Shown one piece after another: positions 2,199 through 22,900 of a stretch of 64,000 nucleotides of DNA. The notes beneath the pieces are model-generated. The model was not told the DNA's origin. It worked only from the letters and a program-made list of their open reading frames with translations, and ran no database searches. The position numbers and the translations under genes are program-made. The stretch lies in sequence record NC_052654.1, one strand, 5' to 3'. Source of the stretch: Escherichia phage vB_EcoM-Ro121c4YLVW. Within the stretch, counting starts at the first letter, position 1. Every line of letters starts with the position of its first letter.

Positions 2199-2855
2199 AT
2201 GACTATTAAACATATCTCTTTTGATGTATGGAACACACTGATCACAGCAAACTCCAATTACGCAGACATGCGAGCCTGGACTATCGCAAAATATGGAGAT
2301 ATTACGGAAGTGGAAGCAAGAGCAGCTTATAAAAAGATCAAAAAGGAACTGGATAATGCAGCACTTCAAGGCAAAGCCGAGTGTGCAGCATACGCTTGGG
2401 AAAGACTTGGTTCTGAACTTGGGATAACGCCTTGGAAGTCTGCAAAGCTTCGTTTCGAGTGTGAACAGTGGTTCCTTAAGTTTCCACCACACGTAGCCGT
2501 GGATCTGCCGATGTACTTGCTGTATCTTTCGGGGCGTTATGATTTGAGTATTAAGAGCAATACCAACTTCATATCAGGGGATATCCTGCGTCGTGCTTGT
2601 AAGTTTGATAGTTGGAATTGTTTTGAGTTCACCCATTTCTCGGATGAAGCTTTACTTTGTAAACCAGATCCGCGATTCTTTGCTCGCACGCTCACGTATT
2701 CTCCGGTCCCTCTGTTAGGGCACGAAGTATTGCACGTAGGCGATAGTGAAGAATATGATGGAAAATGTGTTGACTTAGGATTTAACTTCTGTCATATTAA
2801 GAACCCTAACGACTTACTAGAGAAACTTAAAAGAGGAGAAATTGTAAATGCGTAA
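2199..2855 (+). CDS. HAD-superfamily hydrolase (family IA-like phosphatase)
   Basis: Motif I-like FDVWNTL near the N-terminus, motif III LCKPDPRFF, motif IV HVGDSEEYD. Confidence 0.65.
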   Translation: MTIKHISFDVWNTLITANSNYADMRAWTIAKYGDITEVEARAAYKKIKKELDNAALQGKAECAAYAWERLGSELGITPWKSAKLRFECEQWFLKFPPHVAVDLPMYLLYLSGRYDLSIKSNTNFISGDILRRACKFDSWNCFEFTHFSDEALLCKPDPRFFARTLTYSPVPLLGHEVLHVGDSEEYDGKCVDLGFNFCHIKNPNDLLEKLKRGEIVNA

Positions 2856-3675
2856 TCAAACTCAAATTTTTGCAAATAAATTTGATGACCTGGAAACTGC
2901 TACTTTTGATATCAAAGATTATTCAAAATTGAAATTTGGTAGTAACCAAGCTGCGCGTCGTATGGGTAAAGAATTGGCACTTCAGTTTTTTGCTCAAGTG
3001 GCAATGAAACATATTGGGGAACAATTTGTTATCATCCCTTCTCCTTATAACCATGTGCATAATGCTGCAACAATGATGACAGATCATTTTATTAATTACT
3101 TTAATATGTTGCAAGCACAATATGATCAAGGTCGTTCAGCAGAACTGGATATTATTCATCGTAAAGTTAGCTATATCAACGATTATGGTTTCTTGGATAA
3201 AGCTAGTCGTAAGAAACTTATTGATGGGGATACATTCTACTGCAACAAAGAATTCTGGGGTGATAAGAAGCTTGTGTTCATTGATGATGTAAATATCACC
3301 GGAACTCATGAAGACAAACTGATTGAGATTCTTGATGAAAATCAAGTTAAAAATGATGTTTACTTCTTGTATTTTGCAAAATATGAAGGTAATCAAGCAG
3401 ATACTGAAGCTAAACTGAATTTTAACTACATCAATACACCAGAAGCGTTTGTTAAAATGATTAATGAAGAACGTGATGCACAGTGCCTTGTTCGTCCTAT
3501 TAAGTATCTTATGGGCCAAAATCACGAAGACTTCAAAATCATTCTTAGCCAATTGCCACACTACTATGTAGAGCAACTTTTCTTTGGATGTTTGGGAGAA
3601 GGTTACAACCGAATTTCAAAGTATGCTGAAAACTTTGAATTCTTGGATCGTTACACAAAACAACATATTCTGTAA
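2848..3675 (+). CDS. phosphoribosyltransferase (PRTase) domain protein
   Basis: PRPP-binding signature KKLVFIDDVNITGTHEDK (hydrophobic-DD-x-TGxT); start overlaps the HAD gene stop, suggesting co-translation. Confidence 0.65.
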   Translation: MRNQTQIFANKFDDLETATFDIKDYSKLKFGSNQAARRMGKELALQFFAQVAMKHIGEQFVIIPSPYNHVHNAATMMTDHFINYFNMLQAQYDQGRSAELDIIHRKVSYINDYGFLDKASRKKLIDGDTFYCNKEFWGDKKLVFIDDVNITGTHEDKLIEILDENQVKNDVYFLYFAKYEGNQADTEAKLNFNYINTPEAFVKMINEERDAQCLVRPIKYLMGQNHEDFKIILSQLPHYYVEQLFFGCLGEGYNRISKYAENFEFLDRYTKQHIL

Positions 3676-3688
3676 TAAGGAGCTAAAA

Positions 3689-4162
3689 ATGCTTAAAATG
3701 AAAACAGGTAATCTTATTGATGCCGCTAAAGCAGGAGAAGTAACTGTTATTGCTCATTGTTGCAATTGTATGTGTAATATGGGAGCAGGAATTGCTCCGC
3801 AAATTAAACGAGCATTCCCTTATGCATATGCGGCAGATTTAGACACAATGGCTGGTGATCAAAGTAAGTTAGGTTCTTTTAGTTTAGGGGTGCCAGACGA
3901 ACAATCAGACCCTTTGGTATATAATCTATACGGACAATACCGTTACGGATACAATGCTAAAGGTCGTCAGTTGGACTATGATGCACTTTACGATGCACTA
4001 ATAGCTATGGCTAATGATTTGCTTCTCCGTGACCAAAAATGTAAGATCGGCTTACCTATGATTGGCGCTGGATATGCTGGAGGTAATTGGGCTATCATCC
4101 AAGTGATGATTGAAGAAACTTTAGTAAAAACAGGTCACGATGTGACTATTTATAAACTTTAA
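3689..4162 (+). CDS. macro domain protein, TARG1/OARD1-like (ADP-ribose or O-acetyl-ADP-ribose hydrolase family)
   Basis: VIAHCCNCMCNMGAGIAPQIKRAFP and C-terminal IGLPMIGAGYAGGNWAIIQVMIEETL...VTIYKL parallel the TARG1 pattern (HCISEDCRMGAGIA...PRIGCGLDRLQWENV...ITVYTL) as recalled from memory. ATG 3689 with AAGGAG RBS; the track ORF starts earlier at 3584. Confidence 0.75.
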   Translation: MLKMKTGNLIDAAKAGEVTVIAHCCNCMCNMGAGIAPQIKRAFPYAYAADLDTMAGDQSKLGSFSLGVPDEQSDPLVYNLYGQYRYGYNAKGRQLDYDALYDALIAMANDLLLRDQKCKIGLPMIGAGYAGGNWAIIQVMIEETLVKTGHDVTIYKL

Positions 4163-4475: not shown

Positions 4476-5447
4476 ATGCAACTCGGTTTCCCAATTATTG
4501 ATGTAGTTGTTTTAGTTGGTATTTTGGCATTGTCTATTGGTATCGATTTCTTTGGTCATAAAGAGAATAAAGAAATTGGAATTAAATCTGCTTTGCTTTG
4601 GTCTGTTTTTTGGATTGCTTTAGCTTTAGGATATTACGCATTCATTTGGGTAGAGCATGGTAAAGAGTTTGCCGCACTTTTCCTAAGTGGATATGTGTTG
4701 GAAAAGAGTCTTTCTGTAGATAACCTAATGGTGTTCATGGCAATTTTTGCAAGCTTTGGAATTAAGAGCACACATCTCCAACATAAGATTTTACTTTGGG
4801 GTATTGCAGGTGCCATTGTCTTCCGAGGTGTTTTTGTTGCAGCAGGGACAGCTTTGTTTAACCTGCATTGGTCGGTCCAAGTGTTGTTCGGTCTGATTGT
4901 AGCTTGGTCTGCCGTTGCTATTATCAAAGGTGGTGACGAAGAAGATATTGATTACTCTAAACATTGGGCTGTTCGTTTAGTAGGTAAAGTTCTGCCTGTG
5001 CACAACGCACTGGATGGTGAAAAGTTCATTACCATTAAGAATGGTATTAAATATGCAACTCCTGCTCTTCTTTGTGTGTTTGTTATTGAGCTTACAGATA
5101 TTGTGTTCTCTTTTGATTCAGTTCCGGCTGTTATTGGTGTGACACAAGAACCTCTGCTAGTTTATTCTGCAATGCTGATGGCTGTTCTTGGTTTACGTGC
5201 ACTTTTCTTTGTGTTAAGTGTAGCTGTGAAATATCTGGTTCACTTAGAGAAAGCTGTTGCTGTGGTTCTGGTGTTTGTTGGTGCTAAACTTATGTATCAC
5301 CCGTTCGGTGAAACACTTCATGCCAAGTGGTCATTCCTCCCGCATGATATTTCCCCTAACGTAAGTCTGATGATTGTTCTAGGCACATTAGCTCTTGGTG
5401 TTATTGCAAGCTTTATCTTCCCTGAAAAAGAAGAAGCTGCTGTTTAA
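4476..5447 (+). CDS. terC: TerC/Alx-family integral membrane protein
   Basis: Strong resemblance to TerC/Alx signatures: LSGYVLEKSLSVDNLMVF and IKNGIKYATPALLCVFVIELTDIVFSFDSVPAVIGVTQEP; multiple TM helices; RBS GAGAGGAG. Confidence 0.9.
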   Translation: MQLGFPIIDVVVLVGILALSIGIDFFGHKENKEIGIKSALLWSVFWIALALGYYAFIWVEHGKEFAALFLSGYVLEKSLSVDNLMVFMAIFASFGIKSTHLQHKILLWGIAGAIVFRGVFVAAGTALFNLHWSVQVLFGLIVAWSAVAIIKGGDEEDIDYSKHWAVRLVGKVLPVHNALDGEKFITIKNGIKYATPALLCVFVIELTDIVFSFDSVPAVIGVTQEPLLVYSAMLMAVLGLRALFFVLSVAVKYLVHLEKAVAVVLVFVGAKLMYHPFGETLHAKWSFLPHDISPNVSLMIVLGTLALGVIASFIFPEKEEAAV

Positions 5448-6475: not shown

Positions 6476-7069
6476 ATGACAATTTCTATTCGTACTTCCA
6501 TCGTAGGTGTTAAAAGGTTGCCTAATGCTTTGCAAATCACACGCGCTTTGAGGGATACATTCTCTGCTGTGGACGAGCATAAGATGCTTGATAATCTTTC
6601 AAATTGGCCCTATTTCCATTATTTTAAAAATGAAGATGACGAGTTTATAGACGCTGTTTCTTATGGTTATGATTTCGGTAAGGAGGTTTCTGCTGAAGAA
6701 TTTGTAGCTATGGTGTTCCCAAACGGTTTGCCTACTCGCAGTAAACGTAAAAAAGGACCAAAAAACAAGAAACGTGCTACTAATAAAGCTACCATTTTCT
6801 TTACTGATGGCACACAATATACGATTAAAGATTTTGAAGAGGTATCTTATACAGCAGGTGGGAATCTTTCTTTCTACACCATCAAAAAACAAAACTCTAC
6901 GTTCAGCCATGTTTCTAACATGATTGAAATGTTAGTAGAAGATATTGAAAGCGTAGCTGTGTTAGGTATGCATAAAAGCTTTTTAATTACAAATATTTCA
7001 GATTTCAGTGCACGTTTATCTGGTCCTGATTTTGAAACCACGACCACGCATTTCACTTTTAAGGTGTAA
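6476..7069 (+). CDS. hypothetical protein
   Basis: ORF with strong RBS TAAGGAGA; no recognisable motif. Confidence 0.55.
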   Translation: MTISIRTSIVGVKRLPNALQITRALRDTFSAVDEHKMLDNLSNWPYFHYFKNEDDEFIDAVSYGYDFGKEVSAEEFVAMVFPNGLPTRSKRKKGPKNKKRATNKATIFFTDGTQYTIKDFEEVSYTAGGNLSFYTIKKQNSTFSHVSNMIEMLVEDIESVAVLGMHKSFLITNISDFSARLSGPDFETTTTHFTFKV

Positions 7070-7072
7070 GTT

Positions 7073-7663
7073 ATGTATACCGAGAGAGACTTGCAACTCT
7101 TGTGGTGGGAAGTGATGCAGGAAATAAAAGAAGATTTTCCTGTTTACTACAACATGTTACGTGAAGCAGGATATAAAGCTTGTGTTAGAAACAAAGTGAA
7201 TAACTCTTTCGGTTGGTGCAACTACCGAGATAAAATTGTTGTTGTAAATTGGCACTTGCATAAGAACTCTACAAGAGATATGATCGTGGATACAATGAAG
7301 CACGAAATTGCTCATGCTATTGATGGTTGTATGGGTAAGTTTAGTAGACACGGTGCTCATTGGCAAAAACTGGCAGCAGAGTTAGGGGCTAATCCTAAAG
7401 CCACTTCCAAAGAGCCGTTGAACCACGAATATAAATATGTTCTTGTTCTGGTAGATAGGTTTGCGACAAGATGTGTTAGAGGTTATAATCGTAAACCTAA
7501 TCGCATGTACCCAGGTAAGCAACCTAATATGTGGTTGAAATCAGATAAAGAAGGGACCGAAGGAAAATTATGGTTGTATAAATGGGACGATTGGGTTAAA
7601 GTAGCTAAAGAGTACGGTGTTTCACCATATATAAGAGATGCAGAAGAGGAGAATGAAGAATGA
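7073..7663 (+). CDS. SprT-like zinc metallopeptidase domain protein
   Basis: HExxH motif in MIVDTMKHEIAHAIDGCMGKFSRHGAHW, as in SprT/Spartan-type proteins. Confidence 0.55.
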   Translation: MYTERDLQLLWWEVMQEIKEDFPVYYNMLREAGYKACVRNKVNNSFGWCNYRDKIVVVNWHLHKNSTRDMIVDTMKHEIAHAIDGCMGKFSRHGAHWQKLAAELGANPKATSKEPLNHEYKYVLVLVDRFATRCVRGYNRKPNRMYPGKQPNMWLKSDKEGTEGKLWLYKWDDWVKVAKEYGVSPYIRDAEEENEE

Positions 7664-8772
7664 CAAGTCCATTTTTAAAAGCAGCTACTGGCGGTCAGAA
7701 GAAGCCTGAAATGAGCGTATTTGCTGCAACAACAGATGCAAGTAAATCTGTATTCGCTCCAAGCGTGTTAGATGCCAGTCCTGTTTATGCACCAGCGGCA
7801 CCGCAAGAAGTTCCAGTTTTGCCTTCTATGACCCGACAAGAGATCGAAGAGATTGGGGCAGAGGCAGGAACAACCTTGCGTTCCTTGAATGCCGAGGTAT
7901 TAAAACATCAACGTAGTAATCAAGGCGATCAGATGAGTGAACGACTCACAGCTTTGATTAAACAGGCAAAACAACTTGATCCAAACTCTATTAAACAAAG
8001 CAAGGGTATTACTAAACTCATTAAAAAAGTTATGGGTATGAAAGAAGATCTGTTTGGGGAGTTTGATAATGTTAATAACCGTATTGAAGAGTTGGTAAAA
8101 AACCTTCAAATGGATATTCGCAAAGAAGAAGATTCCTTGGTATATCTTGAAAAGCTACATCAAGCTATTGGACAATATGCTGCAAGTTTGAACCGAGATA
8201 TGCAGCTTCTAACAGCAACCTATGAAAAAGAAGAACAAGCTTTGGCTGCTCTTCCAGAAGATGCAGTAGAACAGCGACAAGTGATCCGAGATACTTTGGA
8301 TCTTCTGGAGATTCGTATTGCAGATTTAAAAGCATTGCGCCTACTGTGTGTCCAAATGGGACCGCGTGTACAAGGTATGCAAAAAGTTTCTGCAAGCTTA
8401 ATGCGATCTGCGCGTAACATAGTAAATAATGTTATTCCTGCTTACTCTGCTAACTTCTCAATGTATATCGAGAGCTTACGTCAAATGAAAGCAGCAGAGA
8501 CGCAGAATAACGTTCTTGATGAATTTAACCTGGCAATTAAACTGGGTAGCGATCTTGCCACACAGAATCAGATAGAAGCAGCAGCACTGGCTAACCGTCA
8601 AGTGTTGGATATTGAAACTCTGCGTCACGATCAGGAAAACTTGGTTAAGATGTTGGAAGAAACTAACCGCATCAATACGGAAGCCCGTGCTGCTCGTGTT
8701 GATTATATTAATGAAGTTCAATCTTTGGAAGACGGGATGGTAGCTGCTGTGAAACGAGGGCTTGGTAAATGA
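7660..8772 (+). CDS. alpha-helical coiled-coil protein; possibly TelA-like (unverified)
   Basis: ATG overlaps the SprT stop (ATGA). 370 aa, Ala/Gln/Leu/Glu-rich helical sequence with a disordered N-terminus. TelA-like call rests only on size, composition and Ter-gene context. Confidence 0.6.
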   Translation: MTSPFLKAATGGQKKPEMSVFAATTDASKSVFAPSVLDASPVYAPAAPQEVPVLPSMTRQEIEEIGAEAGTTLRSLNAEVLKHQRSNQGDQMSERLTALIKQAKQLDPNSIKQSKGITKLIKKVMGMKEDLFGEFDNVNNRIEELVKNLQMDIRKEEDSLVYLEKLHQAIGQYAASLNRDMQLLTATYEKEEQALAALPEDAVEQRQVIRDTLDLLEIRIADLKALRLLCVQMGPRVQGMQKVSASLMRSARNIVNNVIPAYSANFSMYIESLRQMKAAETQNNVLDEFNLAIKLGSDLATQNQIEAAALANRQVLDIETLRHDQENLVKMLEETNRINTEARAARVDYINEVQSLEDGMVAAVKRGLGK

Positions 8773-9139: not shown

Positions 9140-9335
9140 CTACGATAACGATCCTAATATTATCCAGTTAACCCGACAAGAACTGATCACAATCATTGAA
9201 GATGCTTTTATTGATGGTTGGAATACACAAGATAATGACTGGGGTGGACCCGAAGCTTTTCTGGAACATCATAAAGCTTATGGAGAATTTTGTGAAACCA
9301 CTGTAGCTCTTGATAATCTGAAGGAGGGTTTGTAA
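9132..9335 (+). CDS. hypothetical small protein
   Basis: ATG with GAGGAGG RBS. Confidence 0.45.
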   Translation: MFNYDNDPNIIQLTRQELITIIEDAFIDGWNTQDNDWGGPEAFLEHHKAYGEFCETTVALDNLKEGL

Positions 9336-9898
9336 TGGGTTGTTTTAGTTTTTTGTGCAAAGAATCGGGCAAAGCTGCCCTTTCTACTTCTTTCGACGGA
9401 TCACCTTGCTACCTCTTTCTTTTGAAAGACGGTGTTGTTATTGAAGAGATGTATGGCAACTATGATAGTTATGGTTGTGTTTTCTCTGGAAAAGAGGATG
9501 AAAATGGCGTTCGTGAACGGTTCGAATGGGCTATGGATTGGGGTAAGGTTTGTGATTTAATGCATTCCTCAAATCCAAGGGACGGTATTGCTATGGTGCT
9601 GGAAGAGTACTTTACAGGTGAAATCCCTACAGAACAATCTGACGGAGATCCTAATCAAGGTTGGGGTGATGGTGAAGAAGATCCAGATTGTTTTTTCAGC
9701 ACAGAAAAGAATAAGTTTAAACGTGTTGACAACCCTTATCACAAAGTGCATAATACTCTCATTGAAACAGAAGATGACAAGATGGAAATTGAAGAAGATG
9801 ATCCTCTTGTAACACTTCCTATAAGTGAGTTACAAAAGATCACTAAGGAAGCTTACGATTTGGGCTTCAAAATTGGTAGAGGAGGTATGCGTGTTTAG
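9335..9898 (+). CDS. hypothetical protein
   Basis: ATG with AAGGAGGG RBS; acidic, no recognisable motif. Confidence 0.55.
   Translation: MGCFSFLCKESGKAALSTSFDGSPCYLFLLKDGVVIEEMYGNYDSYGCVFSGKEDENGVRERFEWAMDWGKVCDLMHSSNPRDGIAMVLEEYFTGEIPTEQSDGDPNQGWGDGEEDPDCFFSTEKNKFKRVDNPYHKVHNTLIETEDDKMEIEEDDPLVTLPISELQKITKEAYDLGFKIGRGGMRV
9726..9754 (+). promoter_or_regulatory. sigma70-like promoter candidate (TTGACA, 17 nt, CATAAT)
   Basis: Located inside the 3' end of the preceding ORF, about 140 nt upstream of the small-protein/vWA gene pair. Confidence 0.4.
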
Positions 9899-10169
9899 AT
9901 TCAATATTCAAGAAGAAAAAAGTCAGGATTTACCTATTGCTTTCGAAGATCTTGACGTAGGGGCCACATTCATGTATTATGATGCCTATGAAGACGCAGG
10001 GTTGGATACCTACCGTAACTTGGTGTTCATTAAAAATTCCACAAACAGTGCGATTTGTATTAATGGATCACTAGCACAACGAGGCTATACTCATTGCATC
10101 CCACCAGATACAAATATGGTGGAAGTAGATTTAGAAGTTACCAATATTACACTTAAGAAGGAGAAATAA
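9891..10169 (+). CDS. small conserved protein, paralog A (pairs with 11191..11460)
   Basis: GTG start after GGAGG. Shares the pattern ...DLDVG(A/D)TF.Y...(F/Y)(E/D)(D/E)(A/N)GLD...LEV.LTVT.ITLKK with the ORF at 11191. Confidence 0.55.
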   Translation: MFRFNIQEEKSQDLPIAFEDLDVGATFMYYDAYEDAGLDTYRNLVFIKNSTNSAICINGSLAQRGYTHCIPPDTNMVEVDLEVTNITLKKEK

Positions 10170-10170
10170 T

Positions 10171-10965
10171 ATGTCCGAGAAAATCAGCCTGAAAAAACGT
10201 CAAGAAAACCTTGCTTTCTCTCTGAAAAAGAATAAGAACCTGAATGAAGGTAAGATTGTTCTTCGTGTAGCATGTGCTCTAGATATTTCTGGTAGTATGC
10301 ATGGTCTATATTCTAGTGGGGTAGTGAGTGATTTTGTAGGTAAACTGCTTCCTTTTGGTATGCTGTTCGACGATAATCAACAAATTGATATGTGGGCCTT
10401 CAATACGAGTTCCCAAGAGCTTACTCCAGCAACAGCAGACGTTTACGATGACTATGTTGGTAAATGTATGCGTAATGTTCGTATCGGAGGTGGAACAAAT
10501 TACGCCCCTGTAATGGCAGATATCTACGATGAGTATTTTGGCACTGTTACCAAATATATTACCACTAAACAAGTGGTACAAGAGGAGGCTCCAAAGAAAG
10601 GCTTCTTTAATCGTCTGCTTGGTAAAACTGAAACAGTGTCTGTAGAGCGTGAAAAAGTTGTAGCTGTATCTGAACCAGGTGCTGACGTTACCCCTGGTGT
10701 TGTATTCTTCCAGACGGATGGTGAGAATGGTGATCCTAGTGCTGTTCGTCGTCTTATTGAAGAGAATAAGAATAAACCTATTTATTGGTTCATGGTTGGC
10801 GTTGGTAATGAGAAGTTTGGCTTCCTGAAAGAACTGGCAAATGCTTATGATAATGTTGGTTTTATTGGCATTAAAGATTTAGACTTGACAGATTCAGAGC
10901 TTTATGACAAACTCTTATCTGAAGAGTTCGGAGAGTGGGTTGTTAAAGTAGGTGCTAAAAAATGA
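10171..10965 (+). CDS. vWA domain protein, TerF/TerY-like
   Basis: MIDAS motif DISGSM, then GGTNY and TDGENGD; N-terminus MSEKISLKK resembles the TerD-family N-terminal motif. Confidence 0.8.
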   Translation: MSEKISLKKRQENLAFSLKKNKNLNEGKIVLRVACALDISGSMHGLYSSGVVSDFVGKLLPFGMLFDDNQQIDMWAFNTSSQELTPATADVYDDYVGKCMRNVRIGGGTNYAPVMADIYDEYFGTVTKYITTKQVVQEEAPKKGFFNRLLGKTETVSVEREKVVAVSEPGADVTPGVVFFQTDGENGDPSAVRRLIEENKNKPIYWFMVGVGNEKFGFLKELANAYDNVGFIGIKDLDLTDSELYDKLLSEEFGEWVVKVGAKK

Positions 10966-11210
10966 TCGACGAGCTTGCCTCTCAAGTCGTAGAAAATTAT
11001 TGGCGCGAGAGAGAAGCTTTCATTATGCGCAGTCTCAAAGAGTATTTCATTGGGACTGTGCGAATGGAAGATATTGTAAGTAGAGTAGAGATTCATGTAT
11101 GGCCCGATTATGAAGAATGGGTTGACAAAGAAAATGAAAATGCTATAATTCTTCGTATATACAAACCGGAGATAACATTAGGAGGAAGAAGTGTTAAACT
11201 TCGAAATTGA
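10962..11210 (+). CDS. hypothetical small protein
   Basis: ATG overlaps the vWA stop; contains an internal promoter-like site. Confidence 0.4.
   Translation: MIDELASQVVENYWREREAFIMRSLKEYFIGTVRMEDIVSRVEIHVWPDYEEWVDKENENAIILRIYKPEITLGGRSVKLRN
11122..11149 (+). promoter_or_regulatory. sigma70-like promoter candidate (TTGACA, 16 nt, TATAAT)
   Basis: Consensus -35 and perfect -10 hexamer, upstream of the paralog B and TerD genes. Confidence 0.5.
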
Positions 11211-11460
11211 TGAGCAAAAAGTAAATAAACGATGCCTTACCATTAAAGATTTGGATGTAGGAGATACTTTCGTCTATGAAAATGCATTTGACGAAAATGG
11301 TTTAGACCTTAGTGAAATCATTGTTTATTTAAAAGTAGATGATGGGGAAAATGATTATTCTGCTGTAGAACTAAACCATCATGCACAATTAGTATCAATC
11401 CAAAACACATCTAAGCTTTTGGAAGTAGAATTGACTGTAACTGGTATTACACTTAAATAA
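11191..11460 (+). CDS. small conserved protein, paralog B (pairs with 9891..10169)
   Basis: GTG start after GGAGGAAG; sequence parallels paralog A. Confidence 0.55.
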   Translation: MLNFEIDEQKVNKRCLTIKDLDVGDTFVYENAFDENGLDLSEIIVYLKVDDGENDYSAVELNHHAQLVSIQNTSKLLEVELTVTGITLK

Positions 11461-11475
11461 TAGAGGAGACAAAAG

Positions 11476-12078
11476 ATGACTGATAAAATTTCCCTGAAAA
11501 AAGGCTCTAGCGAAAAAATTTCCCTGAAGAAAGTTGCTCCGGCTCTGAAAGAACTGCGCCTGGAATTCTCTTGGAAATCTGATTCTAAACTGGATCTGGA
11601 TGTAAGTGCACTGGTTTGTCGTCATAATGCCGCTGGCAATCCTGAAATGCTGTCCGCACGTCATCTGGTTTGCTATGCTAACAAGTTTGATCCTGAACGT
11701 TCTACCTTCGCTGGTGACGATGTTCGTGATGGGACTGGCAGCATGGAGCAGATTGATATTACTCTGGCTAAAATCTCTCCTGATGCACAAGAGATTGCCT
11801 TTGTTCTGACCATTGATGATGATACAGGTCTGAAACGTTTTGGTCATGCTTCTGAAGGTATGCTTAAAATCTTCGACTCCGAGCGTAATGTGGAAATTCT
11901 GGATTTTGACTTCCTGGCTCCTGAAGTAGCTGGCAACACAATCTGCCACGTGGCTTCCCTGGTTCGTGAAGATGGAGAATGGAAGCTGAAAGCATATGGT
12001 GTAGGTAAAGCTGGTCTGGATATTTGCGATGTGGTGATGGCCTTCGGTGGTAAAAAAGAATGGTATGAATGTCCATAA
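11476..12078 (+). CDS. terD: TerD-domain protein
   Basis: Matches recalled TerD signatures: N-terminal ISLKK repeats, DLDVSALVC, GDDVRDGTGSMEQIDITL, IAFVLTIDDD, DGEWKLKAYGVGKAGL. Codon usage is strongly E. coli-optimal (CTG, CGT, GGT). Confidence 0.9.
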   Translation: MTDKISLKKGSSEKISLKKVAPALKELRLEFSWKSDSKLDLDVSALVCRHNAAGNPEMLSARHLVCYANKFDPERSTFAGDDVRDGTGSMEQIDITLAKISPDAQEIAFVLTIDDDTGLKRFGHASEGMLKIFDSERNVEILDFDFLAPEVAGNTICHVASLVREDGEWKLKAYGVGKAGLDICDVVMAFGGKKEWYECP

Positions 12079-12096
12079 TAATTAACAAATGATTTT

Positions 12097-12116
12097 GAGG
12101 GGGAGAAATCCCCCTC
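12097..12116 (+). other. GC-rich stem-loop (GAGGGGGAGAAATCCCCCTC) without a clear U-tract
   Basis: Perfect inverted repeat between the TerD and endolysin genes. Confidence 0.5.
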
Positions 12117-12145
12117 TTGCAATAAAGCCTCTATCGTGTTATACT
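12117..12145 (+). promoter_or_regulatory. sigma70-like promoter candidate (TTGCAA, 17 nt, TATACT)
   Basis: Immediately downstream of the stem-loop and about 30 nt upstream of the endolysin RBS. Confidence 0.5.
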
Positions 12146-12177
12146 AGAAGTTCGTTAACTTAAAAAGGAGGCAAAAT

Positions 12178-12699
12178 TTGCTGATAAAAAACTTTGTAAC
12201 AGTTGCGTTACTATCCTTAACTGCTTTTACATTTACACCTGTTGTGGCGAAAGCCGAAGCTGCAAACGTAAAAACCGCTAAAGTAGTTCACAAATGTACA
12301 AAGCAATATAATGATAAAATTCTATTAGCTTGTGCAATTTACGCAGAAGGTCGCGGTCTGGGTAAAAAAGGAATGAATGCCGTTGGGAATGTGGTAATCA
12401 ACAGAAGAAATGATGCCTACTTCCCTAACACAGTCAAGGGAGTCTTGTTCCAGAAAGGGCAATTCTCATATGCGAAAACTTTTAACGTGACAGAGAAAGA
12501 TAAGTGGCAGGAAGCAAAAGCAATAGCGGAGCGTTTACTTTATTTAGAGAAACATTTTCCTGAATTGCGGTCTGTTTTAGATGTTACTAAAGGTGCTCTA
12601 TACTTCAAGAAACGGAATATAAGGACACACTGGGAGCGTGATATGCGTCTTGTTTATCGAGATAAAGTGCATGGTTTCTATCTACCAAAGGGGAGTTAA
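12178..12699 (+). CDS. cell-wall hydrolase (SleB/Hydrolase_2-like) with N-terminal signal peptide; candidate secreted endolysin
   Basis: TTG start after AAAGGAGG; signal peptide with AKA-EA cleavage-like site; CAIYAEGRGLG...GNVVINRR...FQKGQFSYAKTF resembles SleB-type hydrolases. Confidence 0.7.
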   Translation: MLIKNFVTVALLSLTAFTFTPVVAKAEAANVKTAKVVHKCTKQYNDKILLACAIYAEGRGLGKKGMNAVGNVVINRRNDAYFPNTVKGVLFQKGQFSYAKTFNVTEKDKWQEAKAIAERLLYLEKHFPELRSVLDVTKGALYFKKRNIRTHWERDMRLVYRDKVHGFYLPKGS

Positions 12700-13972: not shown

Positions 13973-14656
13973 ATGGAAAATATTAAAATCGGAGTGGGTG
14001 TTATCACTGTAGGTGTCCGTCCACTTAAAGACTATCTTGTAACAGATCCACATGCAGATTTTCGAGTATTCAACGATCCAGATCGTAAAGGTGTAGCTTA
14101 CGCCAGGAATGAACTTATGCACCAGTTTTATGAAGAAGGTTATGATTATTGGTTTATTTTTGACGACGATTGCTACCCAATCATGGAGGGATGGGAAACA
14201 TATTTTGTAGATCAAGCTGTCTCTGGAAGATGGGATTTCTTTGGTATGCCGGAGTATTTCAAAGATAAAGTTGTTGGGAGTAAAGGAGAAGTTATTCTCT
14301 GGGAACTTGCAATGTGTCAATTTGCAATGTATTCTCGTGCCGTTGTTGAGAAGATGGGTTATTTCCGCCCTTACACTCACGGCTATGGTTTTGAAGATGC
14401 TGAATGGGTACACCGTTTGAAAGCTGCTGGTTTGAATCAGGGTATTCAGGCAATACCTTGTCCACTTCGTATCATGGCTTATATCCACCCAGACGATGTT
14501 TTTGGAAACAATCCTATGCCTTTTGCTAATCTGACAAAAGAAGAGAAAGAAGCTGCTATTGGCATTAACTGGGAAGAATATAAAGCGTCTTTAGAAGATA
14601 TTAAAAATGGGAAAATCCGAATTTCTTATGAGGAGGCACTGGCACATGTCAAATAA
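13973..14656 (+). CDS. glycosyltransferase, GT-A fold (family 2-like)
   Basis: DxD motif FIFDDDCYP and downstream GFEDAEW; RBS AGGAGAG. Confidence 0.65.
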   Translation: MENIKIGVGVITVGVRPLKDYLVTDPHADFRVFNDPDRKGVAYARNELMHQFYEEGYDYWFIFDDDCYPIMEGWETYFVDQAVSGRWDFFGMPEYFKDKVVGSKGEVILWELAMCQFAMYSRAVVEKMGYFRPYTHGYGFEDAEWVHRLKAAGLNQGIQAIPCPLRIMAYIHPDDVFGNNPMPFANLTKEEKEAAIGINWEEYKASLEDIKNGKIRISYEEALAHVK

Positions 14657-15593
14657 AAAATGGACTAAACTGAAAATTGATGCAAAACCTCACAGTGGTT
14701 GTGATTATCATCGTATTGTTATACCATTTAACAACAATAATTTTCAGCCTAAGAAAGATGTTGTCGTGTTTAACCGTATTCATTCTAAAGGTGCAGAATA
14801 CGTTTTATCTTTGAAACGTCAAGGTGTTAAGATTGTTGTAGATTTAGATGATTTCTACCAACTTAATCCAGAACATTATTTAGCAAGTCTATACGAGTCA
14901 AACACTCATGCTATTGTAGCTATGGTTAAGCTTGCTGATGTGGTTATTGTGACTACGGAATATTTAGCATATAAGATCCGTCACTTAAATAGGAATGTTG
15001 TTGTGATCCGAAATGCACTTCCTTTTGATAGCGGACAATTCACTTTGTCAAATGATCGTTCATCCGGTACCCCTGTTGTATGGGCTGGCGGTGCTAGTCA
15101 CGAACCAGACTTACGACTAGTCTCTAATACTTTCGATGATGAACTTCTTACTATTGCGGGATATGAAGCATCACAAAGCATCACGGGACAAGAGTGGATT
15201 AAGATTCGCAGAAATTTACCAAATGCCAAATATAAAGCCGCCGTAAAAGATTTAGATAATTACATGAGTGTTTACGAAAGTCATGCTATTGCTATAGCTC
15301 CTTTGGTAGATAATGATTTTAATAATTGTAAAAGTAATCTCAAAATCCTGGAAGCTGGAGCAAAAGGTATTCCGATTGTTTGTTCTAAGGTATTACCTTA
15401 TTTTAACCCTGTAGATGCTCGCGCTGTTGCTTACGCAGAGAATAAAGCAGAATGGCATTACGAAATTGTTAAGCTTCTTCGCAATCCAAACTATCGGGAA
15501 GATCGTGGCTTGTTCTTGGCTGAACATGTTCGAACACATTATAATCTGGCAGATGCAAACGAGTTGCGACGCCAGGTTATTGAAAGTTTGTAG
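14646..15593 (+). CDS. glycosyltransferase, GT-B fold (GT4-like), paralog 1
   Basis: C-terminal KSNLKILEAGAKGIPIVCS resembles the GT-B E-x7-E region; ATG 14646 follows AGGAGG; paralogous to the next gene. Confidence 0.65.
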   Translation: MSNKKWTKLKIDAKPHSGCDYHRIVIPFNNNNFQPKKDVVVFNRIHSKGAEYVLSLKRQGVKIVVDLDDFYQLNPEHYLASLYESNTHAIVAMVKLADVVIVTTEYLAYKIRHLNRNVVVIRNALPFDSGQFTLSNDRSSGTPVVWAGGASHEPDLRLVSNTFDDELLTIAGYEASQSITGQEWIKIRRNLPNAKYKAAVKDLDNYMSVYESHAIAIAPLVDNDFNNCKSNLKILEAGAKGIPIVCSKVLPYFNPVDARAVAYAENKAEWHYEIVKLLRNPNYREDRGLFLAEHVRTHYNLADANELRRQVIESL

Positions 15594-15600
15594 GTGAAGT

Positions 15601-16545
15601 ATGGGACAAATAATTCTTGACAATCGTAACGGAATCAATTATAGTGTCTGCGATTTCCATAGGGTAGTGCTGCCTTACTCAAGGCAGTTCTCTTCACAAC
15701 CTAAACACAACGTTTTCGTTTTTAACGGAGTGCCAACAAAAGGTAAAGAGGGCTTTTTAGCCCTTAAAAACCTGGGCTTTAAAATGGTTATGGATTTGGA
15801 TGACTCTTTAGTTATTCCAAAAGGACACATGTTAGAAGGTATTTTTGAATCAGGTATTCGTGAACATTTAAAATGGTTTTTAGAGCACAGTGATCTTGTT
15901 ACAACTACGACACCTGCCTTGCAAGTTGAACTTTCACAATACAATGATAATGTGCACATAATCCCTAATGGACTTCCTTATGATGAAGGTCAATTTGTGT
16001 TGACCCGTGATCGCTACTCCAAAACTCCATTAGTCTGGGCTGGAAGTGAAACACATAAACAAGATTTGGCTATCTTGCCCGATTTTGGTAAAGATCTTAC
16101 AATATGTGGTTTTCGTAGGGATTCTGAAGTTTTAAGTAGTCGTGAATGGTCTGTAATTAGAGAAAATGTAGCACCAACTAGTGTTTATGAAGGTGTAAGA
16201 CCATATGCCAACTACATGGAATCTTACGATGGTCATCAAATCAGTCTTGCACCATTGGTCGATAACGTGTTTAATAATGCAAAAAGCAATCTTAAAATTC
16301 TTGAGGCAGGTGCTAAGGGTTTACCTTTAATCTGCTCTCCTCGTGAGAATTATCATACGCAAGAGTTTAAAGATTTGTTATTCTTTGCTGAAACACTTTC
16401 CGAGTGGAAAGATATTACGGAATACTTATTAAGTGCTCCCGATGTTTGCATGGAGAAAGGATTAGCATTAGCTAAGTATGTCAGGACTCATTATCACATT
16501 GATGTGTTGAATGAGCGTCGTAGACTTTTATTTGAGGAGCTATAA
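15601..16545 (+). CDS. glycosyltransferase, GT-B fold (GT4-like), paralog 2
   Basis: KSNLKILEAGAKGLPLICS and overall co-linear similarity to 14646..15593. Confidence 0.65.
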   Translation: MGQIILDNRNGINYSVCDFHRVVLPYSRQFSSQPKHNVFVFNGVPTKGKEGFLALKNLGFKMVMDLDDSLVIPKGHMLEGIFESGIREHLKWFLEHSDLVTTTTPALQVELSQYNDNVHIIPNGLPYDEGQFVLTRDRYSKTPLVWAGSETHKQDLAILPDFGKDLTICGFRRDSEVLSSREWSVIRENVAPTSVYEGVRPYANYMESYDGHQISLAPLVDNVFNNAKSNLKILEAGAKGLPLICSPRENYHTQEFKDLLFFAETLSEWKDITEYLLSAPDVCMEKGLALAKYVRTHYHIDVLNERRRLLFEEL

Positions 16546-19147: not shown

Positions 19148-19942
19148 TTGAGCAAGTTGAACACACTTGATCAATATTACACTAACCCCGCTTATGCGGG
19201 GTTCTTATGTGATAAGATCAAAGAAATTTTTGGAGAGGAAGCTAACTACGTAGAACCATCTGCGGGAGAAGGAGCTTTCTCTTCTTGTTTTAAAAACATA
19301 ACTTCTTTTGATATTGACCCTAAGTTTGAAGATTGTATTGAGGCAGATTTTTTAGCTCAATCTGTTGAGTCTGTTGGTAGCGTAACTGCTTTTGTCGGTA
19401 ATCCTCCATTTGGAAAAAATGCTAGTCTTGCCATTAAATTCTTTAACCATTGTGCTGAAATGCTGGATAACGAAGGTGGTATTTGTTTTATCTTGCCTCG
19501 CACATTTCAAAAAATCTTTTTTGCACACAAACTAAATCCCCATATGCATCTTCTTTACGAAGAAGAATGTCCAAAAGGATCTTTTATTCTTCATGGAGAA
19601 CCTTGGGATGTTCCTTGTGTATTCCAGGTATGGATTAAACGCAACGAGAAGCGTTCTCCCGTTGTTTTAGGAGAGAATCGACTATTCGTATTAGGTAACA
19701 GTAAAGACTACGATATAGCTGTTAGGAGAGCGGGAGCAAGTGCAGGTAGAGTGTTATCAGAAGAAGATTCTTTATCTGAAGCATCTACCTATTTTTTAAA
19801 AGCCTTGACTTCTGATCTTAAAACGCGTATCATTGAGGCTTACCCGTTACTTAAAGCTGAAGCTAGTAAAACTGCGGGAGTAAGAAGTTTAAGTTTAAAA
19901 GAACTTCAGTGGGTTCTGGAGAACATTAGAAAGGAGGAATAG
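19148..19942 (+). CDS. N6-adenine DNA methyltransferase (orphan; gamma-class motif order)
   Basis: Motif I EPSAGEGAF precedes motif IV GNPPFG; TTG start after AAGGAGG. No restriction endonuclease gene is adjacent. Confidence 0.75.
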   Translation: MSKLNTLDQYYTNPAYAGFLCDKIKEIFGEEANYVEPSAGEGAFSSCFKNITSFDIDPKFEDCIEADFLAQSVESVGSVTAFVGNPPFGKNASLAIKFFNHCAEMLDNEGGICFILPRTFQKIFFAHKLNPHMHLLYEEECPKGSFILHGEPWDVPCVFQVWIKRNEKRSPVVLGENRLFVLGNSKDYDIAVRRAGASAGRVLSEEDSLSEASTYFLKALTSDLKTRIIEAYPLLKAEASKTAGVRSLSLKELQWVLENIRKEE

Positions 19943-22900
19943 TGAGTAAGTTTACATGGGATATTGAAGCAAACGGATTGTTGAATAATGACACTATTGA
20001 TTATTTAGCTAGTCCTTATCGTCTCAAAGACACATTTCAAATGCACTGTATTGTCTTAGAGAACCATGAAACAGGAGAAATAGTAGCTTTCCACGATGGC
20101 CCTAAATACATCTTTGATGGGCGTCCTTATGAAGAGTCAGATGGTAAATACACATATGTTCTTAAAGAGTATGTGGCGCAAGATTACACACATTTTCAAC
20201 TAAAAGATTTCCCAGACTTTATTAATCATGAAGGTTATTTTAAAGATAAGCCTGAATATCTGGTTGAAATGGCTGTGGCTCACAACGGTATCAACTACGA
20301 CTGGTTGGCTACAAAACTGTTTTATGGATTAGATTACAGTGTTAAATATAATACGTGGGGCAAAAATAAGGTAAAACTTATTGACTCCTTGATTTTGAGT
20401 AAAGTGTTAAACCCAGATCGAAAGATTGAGGGCAAATCAGGACATAGCTTGGCAGCACTTTCTCGAAAAGCAGGTGGTGATGTAAAAATAGATTTCCGTA
20501 AAGAGATTCCAGAAGAAGATCGATTTAAGACTTTTGCTGCGGATATGCTTTATTACTGTATCTATGACAACAAAGCCAATACGAGCGTATATAATTACCT
20601 TATGGAAGAATGGGGCGATTATGATAAATGGGAAGGTCCATTTGAACTTGAACAACGTGTAGCAGACATTATTACACGCCAGGAACACCGTGGGTTTGCT
20701 TTTAACATGAAGCAAGCAGAAGAGAACCTTGCTTTTTTGGATGCAGAAATGGAGCGTCTTCGTTTACTCGTTGAGCCTATTTTGCCACCTAAACCAGCAA
20801 CAAAAGGTTATCTTAAGGCTTTTATTCCACCTAAGTTGCAAATTAAAAAGAACTTAGAGCCAACTAACCATATGATCAATTTTGCTAAGAAACATGATGG
20901 TCATTTGGAAGAGAGGGATGGCGATTGGTGGTTAGTTATGTTGGGGAAAGAGTGGAAACTGCCAGTTGCAGCAGATGAGCCTCTATGTGATCCTAACATC
21001 CCTGCAACATTGAACGATACAACCCATATTAAAAACTGGCTCGTAGGATTAGGTTGGGTACCGTCTGAATATAAAGATAAAGACTTGACGCTTAAATCTG
21101 GCACCAAAATTAAAAAGAGCGAGGAAGAACTTCAGAAAGGTATTAGAGCTTACGTTGAGCAAACTCTATCTTCTAATTTTTGTCAGGATCGTTGTGATCA
21201 TCTGGAGTGCACACCGGAAACTTTGGAAAGGAAGATTCAAGAGCGTATAGCAAAAGGTAAAGGTCGCGGTCTTAAAGTATTGACTAACCCATGTTTTACC
21301 AAAGGTCAGGAAAAAGAAATTTGTCCTAACCTGCAAGCTTTGGGTGAGAAATTTCCTTATGCTACACAGATTGTAGAATACTTAACGTATAAGCATCGTA
21401 GGAACTCTATTTTAGGTGGCGGTGCTGATTGGGAAGAAGATGAAGAAGATCAAGAATACGATAAAGGTTTCTTAGCCGCAGTAAGGGCGGATGGGCGTAT
21501 TCCTACACCAGCCGCTACATGTGATGCTGCAACCTCTCGTATGAAACATAGATCTGTAGCTAATATTCCTCGTGTCACATCTTTGTTTGGATGGGAGATG
21601 CGTAACTTGTTTGGTGTAGAAGTTCCTAAATACTTCCAGATCGGTTATGACTTCGACTCTTTGGAAGCAAAGATTGAGTCGCATTACTGTGTGCCGATGG
21701 ATGCTCAAGCTTTGACTCGTAAAGGTTGGGTAGGATATCACGACCTGAAGGAAGGGGATGAGATTTTAGGGTACAATGCTGAAACAGGTATGAAAGAATG
21801 GACTAAAGTAAAAGGTAAGGTCTTCTATAAAAATAGTAAGACGTTTGAGATTAAAGGGAAATCACACACTTACCGTGCAACAGCAGATCACCGTTGGTAT
21901 GTTAATACCCGTAGTAAAGGGAATACTTATGTGCCTAAAGTCAGAACAACTGCCGAGCTTTGCACAGGAGATAATATTATTTGTAATGCTCCATTTAACA
22001 TGGAACAAGATCAGGTAAATAGTTTAACTTCTGTTCAACAAGGTAAATGGGATGTTCCGTGGGTAGAGCGTGTAGTTAATATGTCTCATGCCGAGCGTGT
22101 AGCTTTCTTGGAAGGTTTCTTGATTGCAGATGGTTACTGGCATGAACATAAACAAAAACCTGTTTGGCGTTGGGCGCAGAACCCAGGTGAACTTTTTGAA
22201 GCAGCTTTAACTGCCTCGTACCTGGTGCATGGAGGCAATATCTCTGTAGCTTTCAATACAAAAGAGCAGAAAGTAAAAGTGGCAACATTGACTAACCGCT
22301 CTCACATTCCTGTTCAAAGTTTGACTATTGAAGAGTGGGGTGTAGAGGATGTTTGGTGTCCACAAACAGAACTTGGTACGTGGGTCATGCGTCAGAAAGA
22401 CTGCATTACCATCACAGGAAACTGTTGGCGCTACGAACCGGAGCCTCATGAATACTGTAACGCTCTCTTGTTAGAGAAGCCTAACGATGTTCATACCATG
22501 ATGGCAAAACGTATTACAGATACTATTGGGCGTAAATTTGAACGTAGTCCGGCGAAATCTGTTAAATACGGGATCACTTATGGTGCACAAGCAGACAAGG
22601 TTGCTAAAACAATTGGTAGCGATAAATACACAGGGCAACTGGTGTTCGATGCTTTCTGGGAAGCTGCATTCCCACTGGCGCGTCTTAAAGAACGTTTAAA
22701 CGATTTCTGGGTTAAGACTGGTAAACAGTATGTTTTGGGTATTGACGGTCGTAAGGTTCCTACTCGTTCTGCTCACGCGATTCTTAACTCTCTGTTCCAA
22801 AGTGGTGGGGTTATCTGTGCTAAACGTGCAATGGTTATTTATGACGACATGATCGAAGAAGAAGGGCTAAGTGTTGACTTCTTTAAAGATGACTGGAAGA

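What the first reader, a model, noticed from the sequence alone, without database searches (positions are those of the whole stretch)
9891..12078. Tandemly duplicated two-gene cassette: small paralogous protein followed by a Ter-domain gene
Two small proteins (9891..10169 and 11191..11460) are clear paralogs. Each is immediately followed by a Ter-type gene: the vWA protein starting MSEKISLKK, and TerD starting MTDKISLKKGSSEKISLKK. The ISLKK N-terminal motif is itself duplicated inside TerD. This points to a duplicated, diverged module in which the small protein may be a dedicated partner or regulator of the Ter-domain protein.
Basis: seen in the sequence. Interest (0 to 1): 0.55.

Follow-up and report, generated by a model that had tools for sequence, protein, structure and literature searches.

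The report
Small accessory proteins in phage Ter module
Two small related genes of unknown function sit inside the tellurite-resistance-like (Ter) gene cluster of a known E. coli phage and always travel with its vWA and TerD genes in related phages, so they are probably lineage-specific helpers of that cluster rather than evidence of a duplicated two-gene cassette.

Summary
The window is a Phapecoctavirus (phAPEC8-like coliphage, 99.5% identical to phage nieznany). The two small ORFs (9891-10169, 11191-11460) are real genes and real paralogs: 34% identity, E=2e-14, and both match PHROG 11278. Each is followed directly by a Ter gene, vWA-TerF-like and then TerD.

The "duplicated two-gene cassette" reading fails. 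The vWA and TerD genes are not homologous. An extra gene (ORF82) lies between the two units. The shared ISLKK motif is an old N-terminal signature of both Ter families, and it also occurs in phages that lack the small genes.

The family is confined to about 150-kb Stephanstirmvirinae-like phages. In all 15 loci examined it lies beside vWA and/or TerD, in one or two copies and in variable positions. Both paralogs are predicted to form the same acidic small beta-barrel (pLDDT about 85), with only weak SH3-like resemblance. Conserved sigma-70 promoter-like sites precede each small gene.

Best reading: these are fast-evolving, lineage-specific accessory proteins of the phage Ter module. Direct binding to vWA or TerD is inferred, not shown. 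Interest is modest.

The parts
9726..9754 (+). P_A: sigma-70 promoter-like site, TTGACA-17-CATAAT with TG before the -10 hexamer, 137 nt upstream of sA and inside the 187-aa ORF
   Evidence: 11/12 match. It is conserved in PsgM04F and VEcB. It is also conserved in phiWec179, where the flanking sequence is unrelated and intergenic. Only 9 sites in the 64-kb window score 11/12 or better.
9891..10169 (+). sA: 92-aa acidic small protein (pI 4.4), PHROG 11278, upstream of vWA
   Evidence: The AF2 model has pLDDT 85 and pTM 0.74. The C-terminal KKEK codons contain the Shine-Dalgarno sequence for vWA, and the stop is followed by 1 nt and then the ATG.
10171..10965 (+). vWA-TerF-like protein (264 aa) with a DxSxS MIDAS motif (D38, S40, S42) and an N-terminal double KISLKK...FSLKK motif
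   Evidence: PF10138 at 130 bits against a cutoff of 29.4. Invariant D38, S40, G41, S42, T109 and D183 in the alignment with distant phage homologs.
10180..10230 (+). N-terminal double-strand motif of vWA (KISLKKRQENLAFSLKK)
   Evidence: Conserved in vWA-TerF-like proteins of all phages examined.
10962..11210 (+). ORF82: 82-aa gene of unknown function (PHROG 22387). It overlaps the vWA stop (ATGA) and the sB start, and it carries P_B.
   Evidence: dN/dS is 0.22-0.31. It is present only where sB is present: the window, L002, L003 and L007. It is absent in VEcB.
11122..11149 (+). P_B: perfect sigma-70 consensus TTGACA-16-TATAAT, 41 nt upstream of the sB start
   Evidence: 12/12 match. The 12/12 match is conserved in PsgM04F, phiWec179 and metagenomic locus L007.
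11191..11460 (+). sB: 89-aa acidic small protein (pI 4.3), PHROG 11278, between vWA and TerD
   Evidence: The AF2 model has pLDDT 85.7 and pTM 0.77 with the same element order as sA. The BFVD model of the phAPEC8 orthologue matches the sA model at TM 0.81-0.83.
11476..12078 (+). TerD-domain protein (200 aa), with strongly host-optimised codons
   Evidence: PF02342 at 98.9 bits. Related to solved TerD 2KXT (E=1.5e-15). CTG is used for 18 of 19 Leu codons.
11485..11532 (+). N-terminal double-strand motif of TerD (KISLKKGSSEKISLKK). The two copies are 91% identical at DNA level, 30 nt apart.
12097..12116 (+). GC-rich hairpin GAGGGGGA-GAAA-TCCCCCTC just after the TerD stop. It is a likely transcript end or stabiliser, although it has no clear T-run.
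   Evidence: RNAfold gives -17.2 kcal/mol for the segment containing this hairpin. The consensus terminator scan did not flag it.

Best explanation
sA and sB are two old paralogs of a small, acidic beta-barrel protein family (PHROG 11278). The family is confined to Stephanstirmvirinae-like myophages of about 150 kb, where it is a fixed accessory component of the phage-encoded Ter module (TerC, TelA, vWA-TerF-like, TerD).

Only the small gene was duplicated. One copy (sB) keeps the widespread position between vWA and TerD. The other (sA) sits in front of vWA and is translationally coupled to it.

Each small gene heads a host-RNA-polymerase (sigma-70) driven unit. P_A drives sA, vWA and probably ORF82. 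P_B drives sB and TerD and ends at a hairpin.

The most likely mode of action is direct binding to the vWA and/or TerD proteins as an adaptor, assembly factor or regulator. The strongly basic, shared N-terminal ISLKK hairpins of these two proteins are an attractive docking site for the acidic small proteins.

Shown: paralogy, gene reality, family distribution, conserved linkage, conserved promoter-like sites, a shared predicted fold. Inferred: physical interaction and any role in Ter function.
For: - Paralogy: E=2e-14, the same PHROG, and the same predicted fold.
- Purifying selection on both genes: dN/dS 0.19-0.39. This is faster evolution than vWA (0.08-0.15) and TerD (0.06-0.13).
- Exhaustive profile searches of 1.8 and 5.8 billion proteins find only about 20 clusters of 87-93-aa standalone proteins.
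- In all 15 loci examined, the small gene abuts vWA-TerF-like and/or TerD, even where TerD is only 42-53% identical to the window and the small proteins only 20-35%. The other small ORFs of the region differ between lineages.
- Position and copy number vary (s-vWA-TerD, vWA-s-TerD, vWA-s-s-TerD, s-vWA-ORF82-s-TerD) while adjacency is kept.
- Coupling: sA TAA, 1 nt, then the vWA ATG, with the Shine-Dalgarno sequence inside the sA tail.
- P_A and P_B are conserved across diverged genomes.
- Charge complementarity: the small proteins carry -7 and -11, and the N-terminal 25-28 residues of vWA and TerD carry +4.5.
Against: - No interaction was tested.
- All carriers belong to one syntenic phage clade, so conserved adjacency could partly reflect inherited gene order.
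- Phages of other clades run a TelA-vWA-TerC-TerD module without any member of this family, so the Ter core does not need it.
- sB has a GTG start and poor codons next to a codon-optimised TerD, which argues against a 1:1 structural partner.
- The function of phage Ter modules is itself unknown (PMC9796965, PMC7824862).
Confidence: 0.5

Rival explanations
1. A two-gene cassette (small gene plus Ter-domain gene) was duplicated in tandem and diverged, and each small protein is now the dedicated partner of the gene directly downstream.
For: Each small gene is directly followed by a Ter gene. Each pair has its own conserved promoter-like site. The 3' end of the small gene, the Shine-Dalgarno sequence and the first 9 codons of the downstream gene are about 76% identical between the two junctions (repeats D3 and D4).
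Against: - vWA and TerD share nothing beyond the N-terminal motif and belong to different Pfam families.
- The motif predates the small genes and occurs in phages without them.
- The junction similarity is explained by conserved amino acids, and the Ser codons differ (AGC versus TCC).
- ORF82 interrupts the units.
- Single-copy lineages exist, and so does a vWA-s-s-TerD arrangement.
Confidence: 0.08
2. The small proteins are unrelated early phage proteins, for example host-takeover or anti-defence factors. Their position next to vWA and TerD reflects inherited synteny and shared early transcription, not a function in the Ter module.
For: All carriers belong to one syntenic clade. The small proteins evolve 2-5 times faster than the Ter genes, as is typical of arms-race proteins. 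Other clades' Ter modules lack them. They have no detectable domain.
Against: Neighbouring small ORFs turn over between lineages, while this family is always kept and always touches vWA or TerD. The family has moved or duplicated within the module without ever leaving it. sA is translationally coupled to vWA.
Confidence: 0.25
3. The small proteins are nucleic-acid-binding regulators with an SH3/KOW/Sm-like small barrel. They control translation or stability of the vWA and TerD messages that they head.
For: The weak structural resemblance is to ribosomal protein L2, EF-P/eIF5A, Spt5-KOW and Tudor barrels. Each small gene is the first cistron behind a strong promoter-like site.
Confidence: 0.07

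Closest known systems
Abbreviated phage-encoded Ter operons (TelA, TerF-type vWA, TerC/DUF475, TerD), described in Caulobacter jumbo phages, Acinetobacter phage ME3, Pseudomonas phiPsa374 and Klebsiella phiKp34 (PMC7824862, PMC9796965, PMC8386662; underlying analysis Anantharaman, Iyer and Aravind 2012, cited from memory and via PMC7824862)
   Same: The core genes are the same: TerC, TelA, vWA-TerF-like and TerD, plus PRTase_3, HAD-like and Macro-like genes upstream. The N-terminal double motif is the same in vWA and TerD. The suggested role is the same (superinfection exclusion or stress response), and it is unproven.
   Different: In this clade TerC lies 5 kb upstream instead of between vWA and TerD. 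The vWA-TerD junction is occupied by one or two members of a small-protein family that the other phage Ter operons lack.
PHROG 11278 (phage protein family, unknown function)
   Same: Both sA and sB match it over their full length (E=4e-51 and 7e-45).
   Different: The PHROG entry carries no function or context. The strict linkage to vWA and TerD and the predicted fold are added here.
SH3-like small beta-barrel domains (ribosomal L2 C-terminal domain, DtxR/IdeR C-terminal domain, FeoA, EF-P/KOW, Tudor)
Bacterial TerD proteins (Klebsiella TerD 2KXT, Streptomyces TerD 3IBZ)
   Same: The window TerD aligns over its full length, including the VSLSKGG-NVSLSK double motif.
   Different: The calcium-binding segment reads GDDVRDGTGSMEQ, whereas Klebsiella has GDNRTGEGDGDDE. 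Several acidic ligand positions are therefore replaced. The spacer between the two strand motifs is longer.

Membership tests
TerD family (PF02342) | Pfam TerD domain above the gathering score | tested here: met
   98.9 bits against a cutoff of 25.3, covering residues 5-179. phmmer to 2KXT gives E=1.5e-15.
TerD family (PF02342) | Acidic calcium-binding motif GDN(R/L)TG(E/A)GDGDDE (the motif definition is from memory of the Klebsiella TerD structure paper) | tested here: inconclusive
   The aligned segment is GDDVRDGTGSMEQ. The glycines and some acidic residues are kept, and the GDGDDE part is degenerate. Metal binding cannot be judged from sequence.
vWA-TerF-like (PF10138) | Pfam domain above the gathering score | tested here: met
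   130.1 bits against a cutoff of 29.4.
vWA-TerF-like (PF10138) | MIDAS motif DxSxS plus downstream Thr and Asp | tested here: met
   D38-I-S40-G-S42, T109 and D183 are invariant in the alignment with the Justusliebigvirus VEcB, Caulobacter and Bacillus phage homologs.
Phage Ter module (TelA, TerF-vWA, TerC, TerD) | Co-located TerC, TelA, vWA-TerF-like and TerD genes on one strand | tested here: met
   TerC 4476-5447, TelA 7660-8772, vWA 10171-10965 and TerD 11476-12078. PRTase_3 lies at 2848-3675.
PHROG 11278 small-protein family | Full-length profile match | tested here: met
   sA E=4.2e-51 and sB E=7e-45, both full length.
Tandem duplication of a two-gene cassette | Both genes of unit 1 have a homolog in the same order in unit 2, and the units are contiguous | tested here: not met
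   The small genes are homologous. vWA and TerD are not: only a 9-29-residue N-terminal motif aligns, with E 0.013 or worse. ORF82 lies between the units.
SH3-like small beta-barrel fold | Significant structural match to solved SH3-like domains | tested here: inconclusive
Known anti-phage defence components (PADLOC) and NCBIfam families | Profile match | tested here: not met
   PADLOC gave no hit for sA, sB, vWA, ORF82, TerD or TelA. NCBIfam gave no hit for sA, sB, vWA or ORF82, and TelA was not scanned there.

The most novel reading that the evidence does not exclude
The acidic small barrels are dedicated readers of the lysine-rich double-strand hairpin (KISLKK x2) carried at the N-terminus of both the TerF-type vWA protein and TerD. 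By binding that shared tag they bridge or gate assembly of a vWA-TerD complex during early infection. The within-genome co-variation of this hairpin between the two otherwise unrelated Ter proteins would then mark a previously unrecognised interaction code of Ter systems in general, with this phage clade having added a third player.
Probability: 0.15. Interest if true: 0.55.

Novelty: new variant of a known kind. Interest (0 to 1): 0.33.

Why it matters
Ter systems (TerC, TerD, TelA, TerF) are widespread in bacteria and in large phages, yet their mechanism is still unknown. A small protein family that is strictly tied to the vWA-TerD junction in one phage clade offers a handle for pull-downs and genetics on how vWA and TerD work together. 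The co-varying N-terminal hairpin offers a second handle. This phage genus is also used in therapy-oriented work, so knowing what its early genes do has practical value. The finding as written (a duplicated cassette) is otherwise ordinary gene-family turnover in a well-sequenced phage genus.

Tried and rejected
- Not real genes: rejected. Both have Shine-Dalgarno sequences, are conserved across diverged phages, and have dN/dS below 0.4.
- Recent DNA-level duplication or gene conversion of the junctions: rejected. The 76-77% identity over about 40 nt follows from conserved residues, and the Ser codons differ.
- Rosetta-stone fusions: none. The long proteins hit by the profile search are repetitive Ig-like surface proteins (DUF11, Big_7, HYR, fn3) matched only in partial stretches.
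- ORF82 or the 87-aa CcrColossus ORF as diverged family members: no similarity. The small ORFs next to vWA or TerD in phiPsa374, ME3 and the Rhizobium phage are also not members.
- The 200-aa ORF after TerD in VEcB as a second TerD: it is not one.
- AFDB50 fold search: the library was unavailable.
- The Anantharaman 2012 paper could not be opened.
- Deep branching order of the family: unresolved. Bootstrap support for sA and sB as sister clades is only 20%.
Full report
**Identity of the window.** The region 9300-12200 is 99.5% identical to Escherichia phage nieznany. It is 97-99% identical to about 60 other Phapecoctavirus genomes, including phAPEC8, ESCO13 and ESCO5. The window is therefore a well-sequenced coliphage genus of the Stephanstirmvirinae. 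The genes around the finding all lie on the + strand:
- HAD-like, 2199-2855 (weak match)
- PRTase_3, 2848-3675
- Macro-like, 3584-4162 (weak match)
- TerC, 4476-5447
- SprT-like, 7073-7663
- TelA, 7660-8772
- three tiny ORFs and a 187-aa ORF
- sA, 9891-10169
- vWA-TerF-like, 10171-10965
- ORF82, 10962-11210
- sB, 11191-11460
- TerD, 11476-12078
- a SleB-like endolysin, 12178-12699

**Check of the observation.**
- Both small ORFs start at GTG, 6 nt after an AGGAGG.
- Relatives have ATG at the homologous position, and public records call the same coordinates.
- BLASTP of sA against sB gives 34% identity over the full length, E=2e-14. Both match PHROG 11278 end to end.
- The sA stop is followed by 1 nt and then the vWA ATG. 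The vWA Shine-Dalgarno sequence (AAGGAG) lies inside the KKEK tail of sA.
- sB is followed after 15 nt by TerD.
- The ISLKK motif is at both N-termini and twice in TerD.

It overlooks ORF82 between the two units, and it overlooks that vWA also carries the motif twice (KISLKK...FSLKK).

**Is it a duplicated cassette? No.** vWA-TerF-like (PF10138) and TerD (PF02342) are unrelated apart from the first 9-29 residues.

That motif is a family signature:
- The solved TerD structures 2KXT and 3IBZ begin VSLSKGG-NVSLSK.
- The vWA-TerF-like proteins of Caulobacter phage CcrColossus, Bacillus phage Edson, Pseudomonas phiPsa374, a Rhizobium phage and Acinetobacter ME3 all begin with two hydrophobic-x-L-x-K strands.
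- None of those five phages has a member of the small family next to its Ter genes.

At DNA level, the 3' end of the small gene plus the Shine-Dalgarno sequence plus the first nine codons is about 76% identical between the two junctions. This follows from conserved amino acids. The serine of ISLKK is AGC in vWA and TCC in TerD, and those codons are not linked by a synonymous step. Only the small gene was duplicated.

**Distribution of the small family.** Three searches were run:
- a word-indexed search of 5.8 billion proteins;
- an exhaustive HMM search of 1.8 billion cluster representatives;
- a second indexed search with a broadened profile.

Together they recover only about 20 clusters of standalone 87-93-aa proteins. 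Most sit on contigs with the same phage backbone. The long proteins are repetitive Ig-like surface proteins matched in fragments and are spurious.

Among isolated phages the family occurs in 125 records. Phapecoctavirus has two copies per genome, and Justusliebigvirus has one. By comparison, vWA-TerF-like is found in 218 records.

**Context.** I examined 15 loci whose TerD is 42-100% identical to the window and whose small proteins are 20-100% identical. Every small gene abuts vWA-TerF-like and/or TerD. The arrangements are:

| Arrangement | Loci |
|---|---|
| sA-vWA-ORF82-sB-TerD | window, PsgM04F, phiWec179, L007/L008 |
| s-vWA-TerD | Justusliebigvirus VEcB, L011-L013, Klebsiella 05F01 |
| vWA-s-TerD | L010, L014, L017-L019, L026, L027/L028 |
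| vWA-s-s-TerD | L015/L016, L029 |
| s-TerD at a contig end | L009 |

The other small ORFs between TelA and vWA differ from lineage to lineage in these same loci.

A bootstrapped NJ tree gives these supports:
- sA clade: 94%, with VEcB nested inside it (86%);
- sB clade: 63%;
- deep branches: unresolved.

The nesting suggests that Justusliebigvirus lost the ORF82+sB block. A strict one-small-per-Ter-gene rule is not seen.

**Properties of the small proteins.**
- AF2 models of sA (pLDDT 85, pTM 0.74) and sB (pLDDT 85.7, pTM 0.77) have the same element order: strand, helix, then four strands.
- The sA model superposes on the BFVD model of the phAPEC8 sB orthologue at TM 0.81-0.83.
- Foldseek finds nothing significant in the PDB.
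- Pfam, NCBIfam and PADLOC give no significant hit; the only Pfam match, sB to DUF5006 (E=0.046, 13.3 bits), is far below its 34.1-bit cut-off.
- Both proteins are strongly acidic (net -7 and -11). The first 25-28 residues of vWA and TerD carry +4.5.
- The conserved N-terminal M-x-x-F has low model confidence and no regular secondary structure; the conserved C-terminal V-x-x-I-x-L-K also lacks regular structure in the monomer models, although its confidence is fair. Both termini could be interaction elements. This is inference.

**Selection (dN/dS).** Synonymous sites are near saturation, so these are rough values. The small genes are constrained but evolve several-fold faster than the Ter genes.

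| Gene | dN/dS |
|---|---|
| sA | 0.19-0.30 |
| sB | about 0.39 |
| ORF82 | 0.22-0.31 |
| vWA | 0.08-0.15 |
| TerD | 0.06-0.13 |

**Expression signals.** Only nine sites in the 64-kb window match the sigma-70 consensus at 11/12 or better. Two of them precede the small genes.
- P_A (9726-9754, TTGACA-17-CATAAT with TG) is conserved in PsgM04F and VEcB. It is also conserved in phiWec179, where the surrounding sequence is unrelated.
- P_B (11122-11149) is a perfect TTGACA-16-TATAAT inside ORF82, 41 nt before sB. It is kept at 12/12 in three diverged genomes.

TerD uses CTG for 18 of 19 leucines, against 0 of 12 in sB, and it is followed by a hairpin of -17.2 kcal/mol. TerD is thus probably made in large amounts early in infection. 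sB has a GTG start and poor codons, so it is probably made in smaller amounts. This fits an adaptor or regulator better than a 1:1 structural partner.

**Mechanism.** The best-supported reading is that sA and sB are lineage-specific accessory proteins of the phage Ter module and act through protein-protein contacts with vWA and/or TerD. The linkage, coupling and promoter evidence is shown here. The binding is inferred. The main rival is that they are unrelated fast-evolving early proteins held in place by synteny. The persistence of the family through rearrangements within the module argues against this rival but does not exclude it. An RNA-binding role is unlikely given the net charge. The role of phage Ter modules themselves is still a proposal, either superinfection exclusion or stress tolerance (PMC7824862), and authors working on phiPsa374 state that the function is unknown (PMC9796965).

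**Side observation on the ISLKK motif.** Across ten phages, the N-terminal motif of TerD resembles the motif of the vWA protein of the same genome more than that of other genomes. Examples are ISLKK/ISLKK, VSLKK/VSLKK, LSLKK/LSLKK, INLTK/INLAK and LDLTK/LDLTK. The summed best 7-mer score is 273, and no permutation out of 20,000 reaches it. Base composition explains part of this, for instance lysine use in AT-rich genomes. It does not explain the I/V/L changes within the clade. This hints at concerted evolution of a shared N-terminal element in two otherwise unrelated Ter proteins. It also gives the most interesting, though unproven, idea for what the small acidic proteins might recognise.

**Verdict.** The small-gene family and its tie to the Ter module are, as far as the searched literature shows, undescribed but modest in scope: a new accessory variant of a known kind of phage module.

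Noticed in passing
window 10180-10230 and 11485-11532; loci L004, L005, L011, L014, L015, L017, L021, L022, L023: The N-terminal double-strand motif shared by TerD and vWA-TerF-like proteins co-varies within each phage genome (ISLKK/ISLKK, VSLKK/VSLKK, LSLKK/LSLKK, INLTK/INLAK, LDLTK/LDLTK). Same-genome similarity exceeds all 20,000 permutations. This suggests concerted evolution of a common interaction element. Base composition may explain part of it.
   Followed up: partly
window 11476-12078: TerD has strikingly host-optimised codons (CTG for 18 of 19 Leu, GC 0.446), while its neighbours use CTG for 0-38% of Leu. It lies between a perfect sigma-70 consensus promoter and a strong hairpin. It is probably one of the most highly expressed early genes.
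   Followed up: partly
window 11482-11533: Inside TerD, the two KISLKK-coding segments are 91% identical at DNA level (20 of 22 nt) with a 30-nt period. The spacer between the two strands is longer than in the solved bacterial TerD proteins. The cause could be a local 30-nt duplication or codon-bias convergence.
   Followed up: partly
window 11686-11724 (TerD residues ~71-83): The segment aligned to the Klebsiella TerD calcium-binding motif GDNRTGEGDGDDE reads GDDVRDGTGSMEQ. Several acidic ligand positions are replaced, so metal binding by the phage TerD may be altered.
   Followed up: no
window 2199-4162: Upstream of TerC lie a HAD-like hydrolase (weak match), a PRTase_3/ComF-like phosphoribosyltransferase (PF15610, E=6e-42) and a Macro-like protein (weak match). 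The phage therefore carries the metabolite-synthesis arm of Ter systems as well as the abbreviated TerC/TelA/vWA/TerD set.
   Followed up: partly
window 14607-16545: Two adjacent glycosyltransferase genes (328 and 314 aa) are tandem paralogs: 42% identity, E=2e-77. This is a true tandem gene duplication 2.5 kb downstream of the finding.
   Followed up: partly
window 10962-11210: ORF82 (PHROG 22387, unknown function) occurs only in genomes that also have sB, and it carries the P_B promoter inside its coding sequence. ORF82 plus sB behave as one insertion/deletion block relative to Justusliebigvirus.
   Followed up: partly
L001 (PQ571289.1) 6674-6871 and 7893-8162: In the record for phage EF1-1, sA is annotated from an internal ATG (65 aa), and sB is labelled 'RNA ligase' without support. 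In vB_Ec-G1, the vWA gene is labelled 'RNA-binding protein'. These look like annotation errors.
   Followed up: no
public records MG065650.1, OP562383.1, OR584014.1: Genomes 99% identical to this coliphage region are deposited as a Campylobacter phage (B15) and an Acinetobacter phage (ABPW7). A record 77% identical is deposited as a Pseudomonas phage (PsgM04F). The host assignments look doubtful.
   Followed up: no
window 19942-23274: A 1110-aa ORF hits the family-A DNA polymerase model only over residues 845-1009. A roughly 300-residue stretch before that looked intein-like by eye, but Pfam gave no intein or Hint match.
   Followed up: partly
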